A stretch of DNA of 57,027 bases. Source: a virus (taxonomy: Duplodnaviria > Caudoviricetes). The notes under the pieces are model-generated. The model had not been told where the DNA came from. It did no database searches and worked only from the letters and a program-made list of their open reading frames with translations. Numbering within the stretch: the first letter of the stretch is position 1; each line of letters begins with the position of its first letter. Both the position numbers and the translations under genes were made by a program. Below are positions 1 to 49,971 of the stretch, piece by piece. The DNA is taken from positions 1 to 57,027 of IMG/VR virus record IMGVR_UViG_3300010371_000009; one strand, given 5' to 3'.

Positions 1-123
1 GCTATGCGTAATGCTGATAGTTTAATGTATGTAGATAATGAAAAAGGAAATTTAATAAGCTCTCATGTAATATCTGATATATTTAAAGATTTAGGATTTG
101 ATGGCATTGTTATGAATGCTAAA
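1..123. repeat. Terminal direct repeat (copy 1), circular-assembly overlap
   Basis: 1-123 is identical to 56905-57027 (gctatgcgtaatgctgatag...tatgaatgctaaa). Confidence 0.97.
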
Positions 124-32615: not shown

Positions 32616-32822
32616 ATGAACCTTTATGAAAAAACGTTAAGTTTAATCAAAAATCGTCCAGCAAGAATATCGCTGCAACAAATTACAGATGATTTAAATA
32701 AGAAAAACATTGAAGTTAGTTATAGCTGGATATGTAAATTTCATCAAGGTGAAATTACTAATCCAAGCTATTTAACTTTGCAAGCTTTACATGACTATTT
32801 AGTGAGCGTCGTTAAACATTAA
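32616..32822 (+). CDS. Cro/XRE-like HTH protein
   Basis: VSYSWICKFHQGEITNPSYLTLQAL. Confidence 0.75.
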   Translation: MNLYEKTLSLIKNRPARISLQQITDDLNKKNIEVSYSWICKFHQGEITNPSYLTLQALHDYLVSVVKH

Positions 32823-32835
32823 CCACGCTTGCTAA

Positions 32836-35301
32836 GTGGGGGATATTTTGTATAATCCATATCAGCCTGACATGCAGGCTCAACTAAATAATTTCAATAA
32901 TATTCCAGAAGAATTAAAGGTTCTTCCACAATGGCTCGTATGGAAGTTTGAAGATATTGGTGCAGCAAAGCCTACTAAGGTTCCGTACAATCCCATTAGT
33001 GGTGAAAAAGCAAGCACAACTAATCCTAATACATGGGTAAAATTTGAAGAAGCTGTAGAAGCTTTTAAAACTTGTAAATGGGATGGCATTGGTTTTGTTT
33101 TTTCAGATAAAGACCCATACACATTTATAGATTTAGACGATACGCATGGCGATGCTATTGCATTAGATAAACAAATTAAAATCTTTCGTGAATTCGATAG
33201 CTACAGTGAAAAATCACCATCTGGTACAGGCTTACACATTATTATCAAAGGTGAAATTCCTGTAGGACGTAGAAGAAATTTTATTGAAATGTATAGCAGC
33301 GGTAGATATGCAACTTTTACAGGTGATATTTATCATAAAAAAGGTATTGAATATCGTCAAGAATTATTGACACAATTATTTGAACAAATTGGTTCGTCTG
33401 TTCCGCAAACTAATTTGTTTGTTGGTGATGCTCAAGAGAAAGAAACTGACGAAGTTATAATTGAGCGTGCAGCTAATGCTGACAATGGAATTAAATTTTC
33501 AGATTTATTTTCTGGTAGCTGGAACACTTATTATCCAAGTCAATCTGAAGCAGATTTGGCGCTTATCAACATCATTGCTTTCTATACGCAAAATAGAAAT
33601 CAAATTAAAAGAATATTTCACAAATCAGATTTAGGAAAACGTTTAAAAGCACAACGTCAAGATTATCTGAATTGGATGATTGACAAATCATTTGATAAAA
33701 TGTTACCTGATCTTGATTTTGATGGTTTTACAAATGTCCTAAAAGATCACATTCAAGAAATTAAAAATGAAGGTGCTGTAGCTCAAAGGTTAGAGCCATC
33801 CGCTCATAACGGATTGGTTGTAGGTTCAAGTCCTACCAGCACCACCACTAAAGAGGCATCGGTTAAAGGTAAGCCTGCACCCTTTGAAGGTGTTAATCCT
33901 GGTTCAAATCCAGGTGCCTCTACCAATTCAAAGCCACATTTAAATTTGCCACCTGGATTGTTAGGTGAAATTGCTCTTTTCATTTATCAATCATCGCCAC
34001 GTCCTGTACCTGAAATTGCATTAGCAGCGGCTATAGGTTTAATGAGCGGCATAACCGGACGTGCCTACAATGTATCTGGTACAGGTTTAAATCAATATGT
34101 TTTGCTTCTTGCTGGCACTGGTAGCGGTAAGGAAGGAATGGCTTTAGGCATCGACAAGTTAATGCACGAAATACGTCAACAGGTGCCTACTGCAATGAAT
34201 TTTATAGGACCATCTGAAATTGCATCTGGTCAAGCACTTATAAAATATATTGCAAACAACTCACAATGCTTTGTCACGATCCTTGGTGAATTTGGTTTGC
34301 GCCTTTTGCAGATGGCCAACTACAATGCCAATGGTGCGGAAGTTTCATTAAGAAGAATGCTGTTAGATTTATATAACAAATCTGGATTTGGACAAATAGC
34401 TAGACCTTCTGTTTATGCAGATAAAGATAAAAATACAAGCGCAATTCCGTCACCTTCGTTTAGCATTCTAGGTGAAAGCACACCAGAACGTTTTTATGGT
34501 GCGCTGAATGAAGATATGATTAGTGAGGGATTGCTGCCACGGTTTCTTCTAATTGAATACAATGGTTATCGCGTGCCATTCAATAAAATCCACGGCGAGA
34601 TAAAGCCAACTTTCAGCTTAATTGAAAAGCTGACTACCGTTTGCGCCAACGCTGAAATGATCCAAAATTCAAATCCGCGCAAAGTTATCAATGTAAAATT
34701 TACAAGAGAAGCAGAACAAATTTCAGATAGTTATGATCGTTATGCAGATAGTCAAATAAATTTAAATGGACAAAAAGATGTTGTTAAGCAGCTATGGAAT
34801 AGAGCGCATATTAAAGTTTTAAAATTGGCTGCAATCATAGCTGTGGGCATAAATATGTTTGAACCATTGATAGAAGCAGATCACATGAATTGGGCTATAT
34901 CAATGGTCAATAATGATATTGAAACTCTTAGCCTTAAGTTTGAAGAAGGCAAAATAGGAATGAACACTAGCGAGATAAAACAGATTGATGACATTATTAG
35001 AATTATAAAAGAATATGTCATGCAAGATTGGGAATATGTAAAGAAATATTCAGATAAAAGCGAAAAGTCTGAAAAGATGTATAATGACAAGGTAATCAGC
35101 TATTCATATATTAGCCGTCGATTGGTCGCGCAATCAGCATTCAAGAATGACAAGCTAGGTGCTACAGCAGCGATCAAACGTTGCTTACAAATTATGATTG
35201 ATAGAGATTACATTCGGGAAATGAGCAAAGGTGAATTGGGAAATCGCTTTGGGACTTCACAACGCGCATTCATTGTCACCAATCCAACTATTTTAAAATA
35301 G
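32836..35301 (+). CDS. primase-polymerase (AEP, NrS-1-like) fused to DUF3987-like P-loop domain
   Basis: DLDD, SPSGTGLH, EMYSSGRYATFTG, SQSEADLAL helix bundle; C-terminal GTGSGKE. Start GTG 32836 or ATG 32872. Confidence 0.88.
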   Translation: MGDILYNPYQPDMQAQLNNFNNIPEELKVLPQWLVWKFEDIGAAKPTKVPYNPISGEKASTTNPNTWVKFEEAVEAFKTCKWDGIGFVFSDKDPYTFIDLDDTHGDAIALDKQIKIFREFDSYSEKSPSGTGLHIIIKGEIPVGRRRNFIEMYSSGRYATFTGDIYHKKGIEYRQELLTQLFEQIGSSVPQTNLFVGDAQEKETDEVIIERAANADNGIKFSDLFSGSWNTYYPSQSEADLALINIIAFYTQNRNQIKRIFHKSDLGKRLKAQRQDYLNWMIDKSFDKMLPDLDFDGFTNVLKDHIQEIKNEGAVAQRLEPSAHNGLVVGSSPTSTTTKEASVKGKPAPFEGVNPGSNPGASTNSKPHLNLPPGLLGEIALFIYQSSPRPVPEIALAAAIGLMSGITGRAYNVSGTGLNQYVLLLAGTGSGKEGMALGIDKLMHEIRQQVPTAMNFIGPSEIASGQALIKYIANNSQCFVTILGEFGLRLLQMANYNANGAEVSLRRMLLDLYNKSGFGQIARPSVYADKDKNTSAIPSPSFSILGESTPERFYGALNEDMISEGLLPRFLLIEYNGYRVPFNKIHGEIKPTFSLIEKLTTVCANAEMIQNSNPRKVINVKFTREAEQISDSYDRYADSQINLNGQKDVVKQLWNRAHIKVLKLAAIIAVGINMFEPLIEADHMNWAISMVNNDIETLSLKFEEGKIGMNTSEIKQIDDIIRIIKEYVMQDWEYVKKYSDKSEKSEKMYNDKVISYSYISRRLVAQSAFKNDKLGATAAIKRCLQIMIDRDYIREMSKGELGNRFGTSQRAFIVTNPTILK
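33772..33847 (+). tRNA. tRNA with CAU anticodon, probably tRNA-Ile2 (lysidine), nested in the primase CDS
   Basis: GGTGCTG/CAGCACC acceptor, GCTC/GAGC D-stem, ATCCG-CTCATAA-CGGAT, GTAGG-TTCAAGT-CCTAC, A-CCA; 76 nt. Confidence 0.93.
33852..33925 (+). tRNA. tRNA-Gln(UUG), nested in the primase CDS
   Basis: AGAGGCA/TGCCTCT acceptor, GGTT/AGCC D-stem, GCACC-CTTTGAA-GGTGT, CCTGG-TTCAAAT-CCAGG, A-CCA; 74 nt. Confidence 0.9.
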
Positions 35302-46926: not shown

Positions 46927-47129
46927 AAACACCTAAGTTTGTTGTCTCTCGTAATGTCAATAATACATCTTACTATTTTAAAATTAGTAAAGGTGAAATT
47001 TGGTGGATTAAGGATAGCAAAGACGCCAATTCTTATTCATCAAAATATGCTGCTAAAAAGCATATCAAAACTATTGACAACATACCAGAAGATGTTAAAG
47101 TAGTAGAGCTAGAAACTATCAGTGCGTAG
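46923..47129 (+). CDS. hypothetical protein; stop codon lies inside tRNA-Pro
   Basis: 68 aa with ATGA overlap; TAG 47127-29 is tRNA nt 8-10. Confidence 0.65.
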   Translation: MKTPKFVVSRNVNNTSYYFKISKGEIWWIKDSKDANSYSSKYAAKKHIKTIDNIPEDVKVVELETISA

Positions 47130-47196
47130 CTCAGCTTGGTAGAGCGATTGCTTTGGGAGCAATAGGTCGTAGGTTCAAATCCTACTGCACTGACCA
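47120..47196 (+). tRNA. tRNA-Pro(UGG)
   Basis: CAGTGCG/TGCACTG acceptor, ATTGC-TTTGGGA-GCAAT, GTAGG-TTCAAAT-CCTAC, A-CCA. Confidence 0.95.
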
Positions 47197-49192: not shown

Positions 49193-49269
49193 GCTTGCGT
49201 AGCCCAACCGGCAGAGGCAAAAGACTTAAAATCTTTACAGTGTCGGTTCAAATCCGACCGCAAGCACCA
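49193..49269 (+). tRNA. tRNA-Leu(UAA) with short variable loop
   Basis: GCTTGCG/CGCAAGC acceptor, AAAGA-CTTAAAA-TCTTT, GTCGG-TTCAAAT-CCGAC, A-CCA. Confidence 0.92.
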
Positions 49270-49744: not shown

Positions 49745-49906
49745 ATGTGGAAATTTGAACAGGAATGTACTAATTCAGGTGTATTTATTAAAGATGATGA
49801 ACGTACTAATTTGCAAATCATTAATGATGATAATGATTTGTCAAGTGAAGATTTAGAGCTAGCTAATACAATTTGCGATTTGTTAAATAATCTTAAGCTG
49901 GATTAG
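49745..49906 (+). CDS. 53-aa hypothetical protein; stop codon lies inside tRNA-Thr
   Basis: MWKFEQECTNSG...LLNNLKLD*; TAG 49904-06 is tRNA nt 8-10. Confidence 0.55.
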   Translation: MWKFEQECTNSGVFIKDDERTNLQIINDDNDLSSEDLELANTICDLLNNLKLD

Positions 49907-49971
49907 CACAGTGGTAGTGCAATCGCCTTGTAAGCGATAGGTCAGAAGTTCAAATCTTCTATCCAGCACCA
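49897..49971 (+). tRNA. tRNA-Thr(UGU)
   Basis: GCTGGAT/ATCCAGC acceptor, ATCGC-CTTGTAA-GCGAT, AGAAG-TTCAAAT-CTTCT, A-CCA. Confidence 0.95.

What the first reader, a model, noticed from the sequence alone, without database searches (positions are those of the whole stretch)
33772..33925. Two intact tRNA genes nested, same strand and stop-free, inside the primase-polymerase gene
Seen: a 76-nt CAU tRNA (33772-33847) and a 74-nt tRNA-Gln(UUG) (33852-33925), 4 nt apart, each with a full cloverleaf and encoded CCA. They lie inside the continuous 821-aa ORF and encode residues ~313-364 (GAVAQRLEPSAHNG...PGSNPGAST), the linker between the AEP/helix-bundle part and the DUF3987-like P-loop domain. Established: RNase P and 3'-processing nucleases cut tRNA precursors. 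Inference: one transcript is either primase mRNA or tRNA precursor, so tRNA maturation (or a host anticodon nuclease) would sever the primase mRNA. That would couple replication to tRNA processing and could yield a primase-only product. A perfect TTGACA at 33680-85 could instead be an internal promoter for the tRNAs. I know of no description of this dual-coding arrangement, but cannot search.
Basis: partly seen in the sequence, partly recalled or inferred. Interest (0 to 1): 0.95.

Follow-up and report, generated by a model that had tools for sequence, protein, structure and literature searches.

The report
tRNA genes nested in phage primase linker
Two intact tRNA genes lie in frame inside the floppy linker of a phage's essential primase-helicase gene, and many uncultured relatives share the layout, so one stretch of DNA seems to serve as both tRNA gene and protein code.

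Summary
ARAGORN and Rfam call a tRNA(CAU) at 33772-33847 and a tRNA-Gln(UUG) at 33852-33925 (71.7 and 58.7 bits; cut-off 29). Both lie on the + strand inside the uninterrupted 821-aa primase-helicase ORF 32836-35301 and encode residues 313-364.

This is not a one-off. Of 80 homologous IMG/VR loci, 24 carry 1-3 tRNAs at the same linker (Met, Gln, Tyr, Leu, Arg, in both orders). All 42 nested tRNAs, window included, lie in an open frame. All 17 inter-tRNA spacers keep the phase.

The cloverleaves covary strongly: 17 of 21 and 16 of 21 pairs show compensatory changes, and CCA is invariant. tRNA-free relatives in the clade hold no tRNA remnant. AlphaFold2 models the tRNA-coded stretch as disordered.

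Best reading: these are working phage tRNAs parked in a linker whose only open frame encodes linker-like residues. They are probably matured from the primase transcript at the expense of that mRNA copy. Expression is untested, because no RNA data exist.

The closest precedent is selC nested in selB (Mukai 2021). My searches found no report for phages. Earlier agents of this scan noted the same layout in other genomes.

Rated a new variant of a known kind; interest 0.8.

The parts
32616..32822 (+). Small HTH/repressor-like ORF (68 aa), first gene of the short + strand unit that holds the primase gene
   Evidence: phrog_6223 'transcriptional repressor', E 2.1e-06. The same HTH-then-primase order is seen in phage 73.
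32836..35301 (+). Uninterrupted primase-helicase ORF (821 aa from GTG; 817 aa from the ATG at 32848)
32836..33771 (+). N-terminal AEP-type primase-polymerase plus NrS-1-like helix-bundle domain (residues 1-312)
   Evidence: Pfam PF22763 at residues 236-286. 49% identity to phage 73 gp036 over this part. AlphaFold2 pLDDT is mostly 84-96.
33772..33847 (+). tRNA(CAU), 76 nt, elongator type (Met or lysidine-Ile2, unresolved), encoded CCA. Read in frame as residues 313-338.
   Evidence: ARAGORN. Rfam 71.7 bits. Covariation in 19 homologous copies. Only one of its three frames is open.
33848..33851 (+). 4-nt spacer that puts the second tRNA into its open frame
   Evidence: All 7 Met-to-Gln spacers are 1 mod 3.
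33852..33925 (+). tRNA-Gln(UUG), 74 nt, encoded CCA. Read in frame up to residue 364.
   Evidence: ARAGORN. Rfam 58.7 bits. Covariation in 16 homologous copies.
33926..35301 (+). C-terminal DUF3987 / P-loop helicase part, starting at the conserved PPGLLGEI motif
   Evidence: Pfam PF13148 at residues 530-692. Invariant T424 G425 G427 K428 E429 in alignment A1. Alignment to phage 73 gp036.
47120..47196 (+). Free-standing tRNA-Pro(UGG), part of the phage's tRNA set and used as a contrast
   Evidence: The longest same-strand open frame spanning it is 41 aa.
49193..49269 (+). Free-standing tRNA-Leu(UAA)
49897..49971 (+). Free-standing tRNA-Thr(UGU)

Best explanation
The 154-nt stretch is dual-coding. 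It holds two working phage tRNA genes, an elongator-type tRNA(CAU) and tRNA-Gln(UUG). The same stretch is also translated, in the one frame that is free of stop codons, as the disordered linker between the primase-polymerase and helicase halves of an essential replication protein. Selection acts on both layers. It keeps the cloverleaves and the CCA ends as RNA, and it keeps an open, correctly phased frame as protein code. The tRNAs supply decoders for codons that this 36% GC phage uses heavily: CAA, and AUG or AUA. I infer, but have not shown, that the tRNAs have no promoter of their own, are transcribed as part of the HTH-primase mRNA, and are cut out by host RNase P and 3' nucleases. Under that reading, any transcript copy that matures into tRNA is lost as primase mRNA. 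Copies covered by ribosomes stay unfolded and yield the full-length protein. My sub-odds are about 0.9 for 'real, selected tRNA genes that are also translated' and about 0.6 for 'matured from the primase transcript, with the two fates mutually exclusive'.
For: - tRNA quality: Rfam scores 71.7 and 58.7 bits against a cut-off of 29, and ARAGORN calls both.
- Recurrence: 24 of 80 homologous IMG/VR loci carry 1-3 + strand tRNAs at the same linker. All 42 nested tRNAs (25 sources with the window) lie wholly inside the long ORF, and 41 of 42 end in CCA.
- RNA-level selection, tRNA(CAU): in 19 of the 21 copies, 99.5% of cells pair and 17 of 21 pairs show changes on both sides. 0 of 500 shuffles reach this on any of the five measures, and slid controls pair at 29-48%.
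- RNA-level selection, tRNA-Gln: in 16 of the 18 copies, 98.2% of cells pair and 16 of 21 pairs are compensatory. The CCA columns are invariant in both alignments.
- No decaying intermediates: 0 of 11 tRNA-free linkers inside the tRNA-bearing clade give a tRNA hit even at E<=5.
- Protein-level selection: all 17 inter-tRNA spacers keep the phase. All 7 Met-to-Gln spacers are 1 mod 3, all 9 Gln-to-Met spacers are 2 mod 3, and the one Met-to-Arg spacer is 2 mod 3.
- Frame use: 20 of 21 CAU tRNAs are read in frame 0, their only open frame, and 18 of 18 Gln tRNAs in frame 1. Among 11 free-standing tRNAs of this phage and three relatives, only 11 of 33 frames are open and the spanning open frames are 0-74 aa.
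- The linker tolerates it: the used frame encodes 79% G/S/P/T/A/N/Q/D/E/K, against 73% in the 56 tRNA-free linkers. The other two frames hold 65 and 95 stops.
- Structure: AlphaFold2 gives pLDDT below 50 and no secondary structure for residues 308-363 of the 817-aa form, which is the tRNA-coded stretch.
- The fused protein is ancestral: phage 73 gp036 aligns at 49% identity on both sides of the linker.
- Codon use: CAA is 79% of Gln codons; ATA runs at 16.3 and ATG at 19.8 per 1000 codons.
- No sigma-70-like promoter lies on the + strand between 32857 and 34533.
- Complete relatives with tRNA-free linkers have no tRNA anywhere. Relatives with nested tRNAs also have free-standing ones.
Against: - No expression data of any kind exist. 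The only run that holds the sequence is a DNA run, so neither the mature tRNAs nor the full-length protein has been seen.
- The tRNA sets used for covariation were picked by ARAGORN. The high percentage paired is therefore partly built in, although the compensatory changes are not.
- The loci are related, so the counts (42 of 42, 17 of 17) are not independent events.
- The promoter scan covers sigma-70-type sites only. A phage-specific internal promoter cannot be excluded.
- RNase P processing is normally efficient, so it is unclear how enough intact mRNA would survive. The ribosome-shielding idea is untested.
- The identity of the CAU tRNA (Met or Ile2) is unresolved.
- The host is unknown and no cultured relative exists.
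Confidence: 0.65

Rival explanations
1. Neutral parking with independent expression. The tRNAs are functional but are transcribed from their own internal promoter, perhaps a phage-specific one. The overlap with the ORF would then be only a tolerated way to fit tRNA genes into a compact genome, without meaningful competition between mRNA and tRNA fates.
For: The linker tolerates almost any sequence: tRNA-free linkers run from about 20 to 80 variable residues. tRNA content varies freely among relatives in order, number and type, as expected for neutral cargo. The promoter scan only tests sigma-70 consensus sites.
Against: No promoter-like site lies on the + strand upstream of the tRNAs inside the gene. 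Even with an internal promoter, full-length primase transcripts would still contain both cloverleaves and remain RNase P substrates.
Confidence: 0.17
2. Fossil tRNAs. The stretch is a tRNA-derived insertion that now serves only as linker codons and makes no working tRNA.
For: One-off tRNA-derived insertions that are read through as linker were noted by an earlier agent of this scan in another phage helicase (e1-3438614, not checked here). The peptide is disordered and could be any sequence.
Against: Compensatory changes occur in 17 of 21 and 16 of 21 stem pairs, with 98-99% pairing, across proteins only 44-66% identical. CCA, U8, the GTTC of the T arm and the anticodon loops are invariant. No decayed intermediates are found. 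Rfam scores are twice the cut-off.
Confidence: 0.04
3. Functionally split gene. Processing is complete, so no full-length protein is made. The N-terminal primase and the C-terminal helicase would be produced separately, through a non-stop fragment and an internal restart.
For: RNase P cleavage at 33771/33772 would fall exactly on a codon boundary after residue 312, at the end of the helix-bundle part.
Against: If read-through were not needed, some of the 25 sources should have stops or frame shifts in the tRNA block. None does, and all 17 spacers keep the phase. No conserved Met or other start codon is evident between the tRNAs and the PPGLLGEI motif. No RF-1/ArfB-type rescue factor is found in the window or in 5 complete relatives.
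Confidence: 0.06
4. Artefact or recombination site. The tRNAs would come from misassembly, or would be the attP core of an integrating phage.
For: Phage attP sites often overlap tRNA sequence (established knowledge). The window is a metagenome assembly.
Against: A second assembler's contig of 56,932 nt is identical over the gene (probably the same sample). 24 other loci from other samples show the same layout. No tyrosine or serine recombinase is found in the complete genome. The tRNAs are whole, not 3' fragments.
Confidence: 0.01

Closest known systems
selC (tRNA-Sec) nested in the selB ORF of Alphaproteobacteria (Mukai 2021, Int J Mol Sci 22:4605, PMC8124441; I read the abstract, section 2.6 and the Discussion)
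   Same: An entire tRNA gene lies on the same strand inside a protein ORF. The case rests on comparative genomics only. The proposed consequence is the same: tRNA processing leaves a non-stop upstream mRNA, so protein and tRNA expression are alternatives.
   Different: There the tRNA sits in a C-terminal extension, is a single tRNA, and is the functional partner of the host protein. Here one to three ordinary elongator tRNAs sit between two essential domains of a viral replication protein with no known link to those tRNAs. The tRNA types and their order also vary among relatives.
tRNA genes integrated in protein genes of compact animal mitochondrial genomes (tRNA-Lys inside cox1 of Armadillidium vulgare; seen only as cited in Mukai's Discussion, reference 17)
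   Same: A same-strand tRNA lies fully inside a coding region, with alternative processing proposed.
   Different: That case concerns a mitochondrial, highly reduced 60-nt tRNA under extreme genome compaction. Here the tRNAs are canonical 74-76-nt bacterial-type molecules with encoded CCA, in a 57-kb phage that also keeps ordinary intergenic tRNAs.
Ordinary phage tRNA genes (the window's own Pro, Leu and Thr genes and those of its relatives; intergenic clusters of large phages such as Cba120)
   Same: They share the presumed role of supplying decoders for codons the AT-rich phage uses heavily. They also share the same canonical structure.
   Different: Those genes are intergenic or overlap ORF ends by a few bases: 10 nt in Cba120 and 10 nt for the window's Pro and Thr genes. 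The nested ones are wholly inside an 821-aa ORF.
Replicative primase/helicase of Septimatrevirus phages (Pseudomonas phage 73 gp036, Kakheti25, Ab26, DLP1/2)
   Same: The protein architecture is the same: AEP primase-polymerase, helix bundle, variable linker, DUF3987 helicase. Identity is 48-49% over 98% of the length. The upstream HTH gene is also shared.
   Different: Their linkers are tRNA-free: ARAGORN finds 0 tRNAs in L001, and 1 of 45 loci outside the tRNA-bearing clade has one.

Membership tests
Canonical tRNA (Rfam RF00005) | Covariance-model score above the curated gathering score over the full model | tested here: met
   71.7 and 58.7 bits against 29, with model positions 1-71 of 71 matched.
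Canonical tRNA (Rfam RF00005) | Four-stem cloverleaf maintained by compensatory substitutions among homologues | tested here: met
   17 of 21 pairs (CAU) and 16 of 21 pairs (Gln) change on both sides, with 99.5% and 98.2% of cells paired. Caveat: the rows were chosen by ARAGORN.
Canonical tRNA (Rfam RF00005) | Universally conserved nucleotides (U8, A14, G18, the T-arm GTTC, U33) and a 3' CCA | tested here: met
   These are invariant columns in A2 and A3. 41 of 42 nested tRNAs end in CCA. The position names are recalled, not from a call.
Canonical tRNA (Rfam RF00005) | Mature, aminoacylated RNA present in cells | not testable with these tools
   No RNA run holds the sequence.
Bacterial initiator tRNA-fMet | Mismatch at pair 1-72 (recalled feature) | tested here: not met
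   Pair 1-72 is a standard pair in 18 of 18 distinct CAU copies. These are therefore elongator-type tRNAs.
tRNA-Ile2 (lysidine, reads AUA) versus elongator tRNA-Met | Closer to a known ileX than to metT/metU | tested here: inconclusive
   14 of 19 copies are closer to E. coli ileX (mean identity 0.729 against 0.694), but the consensus is 0.763 to ileX against 0.779 to metT/metU. Host TilS determinants are unknown.
AEP primase-polymerase / DUF3987 helicase fusion (phage 73 gp036 type) | Both domains present in one polypeptide that aligns to characterised-family members on both sides | tested here: met
   Pfam PF22763 and PF13148 both match. 49% identity over 805 residues to gp036. The acidic DxD and the GxGKE P-loop residues are invariant in A1 (motif names recalled).
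Nested tRNA in an ORF, selB/selC type (Mukai 2021) | Entire tRNA on the same strand inside the ORF | tested here: met
Nested tRNA in an ORF, selB/selC type (Mukai 2021) | The tRNA is the functional partner of the host protein and lies in a C-terminal extension | tested here: not met
   The host protein is a primase-helicase. The tRNAs lie between residues 312 and 365 of 821, flanked by conserved domains.
Excised intervening sequence (intron-like removal of the tRNA block from the mRNA) | Removing the block keeps the reading frame | tested here: not met
   The block length is a multiple of 3 in only 2 of 25 sources. The window's block is 154 nt.
Phage attP overlapping a tRNA | An integrase is present and the tRNA is a partial 3' copy | tested here: not met
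   No PF00589 or PF00239 match in the complete genome. Both tRNAs are full length.

The most novel reading that the evidence does not exclude
The nested tRNAs form a built-in switch that ties replication to translation capacity. While ribosomes run densely over the primase mRNA, the cloverleaves cannot fold and full-length primase-helicase is made. When ribosomes thin out or stall upstream, the cloverleaves fold and RNase P cuts exactly at the codon 312/313 boundary. The message is then converted into two decoders, and possibly into a primase-only fragment. Stalling could occur for want of these very tRNAs: 14 CAA, 4 ATG and 3 ATA codons precede the block. Each replication mRNA would thus end its life as tRNA, and the phage would sense its own tRNA supply.
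Probability: 0.2. Interest if true: 0.9.

Novelty: new variant of a known kind. Interest (0 to 1): 0.8.

Why it matters
This would be the first viral case of complete tRNA genes that are also translated as part of a protein. It would also be the first case in which such tRNAs sit between two essential domains, and the first with up to three tRNAs. Dozens of diverged natural variants already provide a comparative data set.

The layout shows that one frame of a tRNA gene happens to encode linker-like peptide. That may explain how dual coding of this kind can arise at all.

It sets up a clean, testable competition between translation and RNase P processing on a single RNA. It also warns annotators that a tRNA call inside a long ORF is not always a false positive.

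Tried and rejected
- Internal promoter: the TTGACA at 33680 has no -10 partner. The scan found 9 sigma-70-like sites against 12.6 +/- 3.8 in shuffles, none on the + strand between 32857 and 34533.
- RNA evidence: no RNA holder is listed. The only run is one DNA run, X1, from a soil metagenome and probably the source sample. Laying X1 showed one contig identical to the gene.
- Ribosome-rescue idea: phage 73 has an RF-1-like 'peptidyl-tRNA hydrolase' gene after its primase gene. PF00472 is absent from the window and from 5 complete relatives, so I dropped the idea.
- attP idea: no tyrosine or serine recombinase is present.
- Intron-like excision: rejected by the frame test.
- Decayed tRNAs in tRNA-free linkers: none at E<=5 in 11 loci.
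- Met versus Ile2: blastn of the CAU tRNA against E. coli genomes found nothing. Pairwise identity to E. coli ileX, metT and metU was indecisive.
- First try at related loci with the single protein gave only 19 distant N-terminal matches at 30-36% identity. I did not use them further. The alignment-based scan gave the 80 loci that I used.
- Cultured phages: the best primase hits are below 50% identity. None of the 40 rows listed, out of 173 records matching the linker segment, has a tRNA under the match, and all have shorter linkers. The other 133 records were not seen.
- The window's first large ORF has only 3 distant hits, at most 28% identical.
- The Cba120 'tRNA-Met | HNH' overlap seen is a trivial 10-nt end overlap.
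- PSV3 records match in 3-5 pieces and hold no tRNA.
- Literature: searches found no report of tRNAs nested in a phage ORF. Only Mukai 2021 surfaced. I judged the results from the listings and abstract starts. Subscription journals are not covered, and supplements were not consulted.
- The tree is a midpoint-rooted FastTree without displayed support values. L077 (broken frame, 448 aa) was left out.
- Rows dropped from the covariation sets: L034's 75-nt CAU tRNA and the duplicate L061 from A2; the duplicates L061 and L067 from A3.
Full report
**The observation**

The window is a complete 57,027-bp virus record with direct terminal repeats. ARAGORN finds five tRNAs. Two of them, tRNA(CAU) at 33772-33847 and tRNA-Gln(UUG) at 33852-33925, lie on the + strand. 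Rfam's tRNA model scores them 71.7 and 58.7 bits against a gathering score of 29, over the whole model.

The ORF 32836..35301 (+, 821 aa) runs through both without a stop. The protein database holds the 817-aa form that starts at the next ATG. Pfam finds the NrS-1 polymerase helix-bundle domain at residues 236-286 and DUF3987 at 530-692. The tRNA block encodes residues 313-364.

A contig made by a different assembler covers the gene with no differences. It comes from the only run that holds the sequence, which is probably the source sample.

**Is the long ORF a real single gene?**

Pseudomonas phage 73 gp036 is a single 773-aa 'DNA primase'. It aligns at 49% identity over 805 residues on both sides of the tRNA block. 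All 38 gap positions fall in the non-conserved stretch that corresponds to window residues about 316-369. Phage 73 has no tRNA there. The fused primase-helicase is therefore the ancestral form, and the tRNAs occupy its variable inter-domain linker.

AlphaFold2, run on an alignment of 47 homologues, gives a mean pLDDT of 80.9. For residues 308-363 of the 817-aa form, which is the tRNA-coded stretch, pLDDT is below 50 and no secondary structure is modelled.

**Recurrence**

The closest database homologues (55-66% identity, mostly on contigs of about 57-60 kb) already show tRNA-like peptides in their linkers. The consensus of the 47-sequence alignment shows them too.

An alignment-based scan of IMG/VR returned 80 loci. 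ARAGORN and a script found that 24 of the 80 carry one to three + strand tRNAs at the same linker. Counting the window, the 25 sources break down as follows:

| tRNA content | sources |
|---|---|
| Met-Gln | 7 |
| Gln-Met | 8 |
| Gln-Met-Arg(UCU) | 1 |
| Met alone | 5 |
| Gln alone | 2 |
| Tyr(GUA) | 1 |
| Leu(UAA) | 1 |

All 42 nested tRNAs lie wholly inside the uninterrupted primase frame, and 41 of 42 end in CCA.

On a midpoint-rooted FastTree of the proteins (linker columns removed, L077 left out, support values not inspected), 24 of the 35 members of one clade carry tRNAs. That clade contains the window. Only 1 of the 45 others carries one, the Leu case L074.

**Are they working tRNAs?**

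- For tRNA(CAU), 19 of the 21 copies were aligned. 99.5% of cells form standard pairs and 17 of 21 pairs change on both sides. No shuffle out of 500 reaches the observed value on any of the five measures, and structures slid by 1-3 columns pair at 29-48%.
- For tRNA-Gln, 16 of the 18 copies were aligned. 98.2% of cells pair and 16 of 21 pairs are compensatory. For that count 7 of 500 shuffles reach it; for the other four measures 0 of 500 do.
- The CCA end, the anticodon loops and the universal tRNA positions are invariant columns.
- Pair 1-72 is always a standard pair, so the CAU tRNA is not an initiator.
- Caveat: the rows were selected by ARAGORN, so the high percentage paired is partly built in. 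The compensatory changes are not.
- None of the 11 tRNA-free linkers inside the tRNA-bearing clade gives any tRNA hit, even at E<=5. The tRNAs are either intact or entirely absent, with no decaying intermediates.
- Two complete relatives with tRNA-free linkers have no tRNA anywhere. Three complete relatives with nested tRNAs have 5, 2 and 5 tRNAs in all.

**Is the stretch selected as protein code?**

- 20 of 21 CAU tRNAs are read in frame 0. The other two frames are closed. L034's different 75-nt CAU tRNA is read in its own sole open frame.
- All 18 Gln tRNAs are read in frame 1.
- All 17 inter-tRNA spacers have the length class needed to place the next tRNA in its open frame, although their lengths range from -1 to 34 nt.
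- As a control, the 11 free-standing tRNAs of the window and of three relatives have only 11 of 33 frames open. They are spanned by same-strand open frames of at most 74 aa.
- The tRNA block is a multiple of 3 in only 2 of 25 sources. Clean removal of the tRNAs from the mRNA would therefore break the frame, so the helicase half can only be made by translating through them.
- The used frame encodes 79% G/S/P/T/A/N/Q/D/E/K and 16% hydrophobic residues. The 56 natural tRNA-free linkers have 73% and 22%. The other two frames contain 65 and 95 stops. This explains why a tRNA can be tolerated here.

**Context and likely role**

The genome is 36.4% GC. The tRNA block is 49.4% GC and the rest of the gene 35.5%. 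All five tRNAs match codons the phage favours:

| codon | share within its amino acid |
|---|---|
| CAA | 79% of Gln |
| TTA | 44% of Leu |
| ACA | 42% of Thr |
| CCA | 46% of Pro |

ATA occurs at 16.3 and ATG at 19.8 per 1000 codons. Whether the CAU tRNA reads AUG or, after lysidine modification, AUA could not be settled.

The gene sits with a small HTH gene in a two-gene + strand unit. That unit lies inside a minus-strand replication module with a helicase, a Cas4-type exonuclease, an SSB and a Sak4-like annealing protein. No integrase is present.

**Mechanism: shown and inferred**

Shown:
- The tRNA genes are intact and conserved.
- The reading frame through them is obligatory, in phase and conserved.
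- The encoded peptide is modelled as disordered.

Inferred:
- The tRNAs are co-transcribed with the primase mRNA.
- Host RNase P and 3' nucleases release them.
- Each processed transcript is lost as mRNA, leaving a non-stop 5' fragment that ends exactly after codon 312.
- Translating ribosomes keep other copies unfolded.

I found no support for a separately translated helicase half. No conserved start codon is evident after the block. I also found no phage-encoded non-stop rescue factor.

**Comparison with what is known**

Mukai (2021, PMC8124441; abstract, section 2.6 and Discussion read) predicted a tRNA-Sec gene nested in the 3' extension of selB. The paper calls it the first nested tRNA in a bacterial ORF and proposes the same alternative-expression logic. 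Its Discussion cites a mitochondrial tRNA-Lys inside cox1.

Six literature searches found nothing on phages. No cultured phage among the rows I could see has the layout.

Earlier agents of this scan reported the same arrangement in other genomes. I took the Mukai lead from one of those notes and checked the paper myself.

**Verdict**

The finding is real, recurrent and selected on both coding layers. It differs from the selB case in five ways: it is viral, it sits in the middle of the protein, it can hold several tRNAs, the tRNA types vary, and the tRNAs have no functional tie to the host protein. I therefore rate it a new variant of a known kind, with interest 0.8. Function and regulation remain to be shown experimentally.

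Noticed in passing
window 47120-47196, 49193-49269, 49897-49971; L107, L108, L109: The phage keeps a second, ordinary intergenic tRNA set: Pro-UGG, Leu-UAA and Thr-UGU. Complete relatives hold the same set or a subset (G003 Leu, Pro, Thr; G005 Arg, Pro, Leu; G004 Leu, Thr). In the five genomes checked (window, G003, G004, G005, L058), Met and Gln are always the nested tRNAs and Pro, Leu and Thr always the free-standing ones. Arg is nested in L058 and free-standing in G005.
   Followed up: partly
L071, L079, L093, L096 (primase linkers): Four tRNA-free linkers outside the tRNA clade share an odd conserved peptide motif (C-[TL]-K-N-R-L-P-N ... E-G) within otherwise unalignable linker sequence. 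It could mark another embedded element.
   Followed up: no
P0013, P0032, P0046 (homologous proteins of 1102-1158 aa): Some close primase homologues carry Hint (PF05203) and LAGLIDADG (PF14528) domains, which suggests inteins. This gene family therefore hosts several kinds of in-frame insertion.
   Followed up: no
L104 (E. coli K-12, 696430-697133): The E. coli metT-leuW-glnU-glnW-metU-glnV-glnX operon places tRNA-Met(CAU) directly next to tRNA-Gln(UUG), the same pair that is nested in the phage linker. A host operon of this type could be the source of the pair. Identities to the phage tRNAs are only about 65-73%.
   Followed up: partly
L001 4271-4765 (phage 73 gp037); L002 4755-5249: Septimatrevirus relatives without nested tRNAs carry an RF-1-like 'peptidyl-tRNA hydrolase / release factor' gene just after the primase gene. 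It is absent from the window and from 5 complete relatives.
   Followed up: yes
L002, L003 (Pseudomonas phage PSV3 records): The primase gene matches in 3-5 pieces spread over 2.6-2.8 kb and is annotated as 4-6 small hypothetical CDS. This looks like frameshifts or duplications in those assemblies.
   Followed up: no
window 33772-33845, minus strand: There is a sub-threshold Rfam hit to 'Plastid-ycf2 5UTR RNA' (37.2 bits against 65.7) on the antisense of the CAU tRNA. I read it as an artefact of a tRNA-like model.
   Followed up: partly
L077; L063: L077's primase frame is broken: the longest open frame is 448 aa. L063's tblastn match spans 3.5 kb although its longest open frame is 780 aa, so there may be an insertion or duplication.
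   Followed up: no
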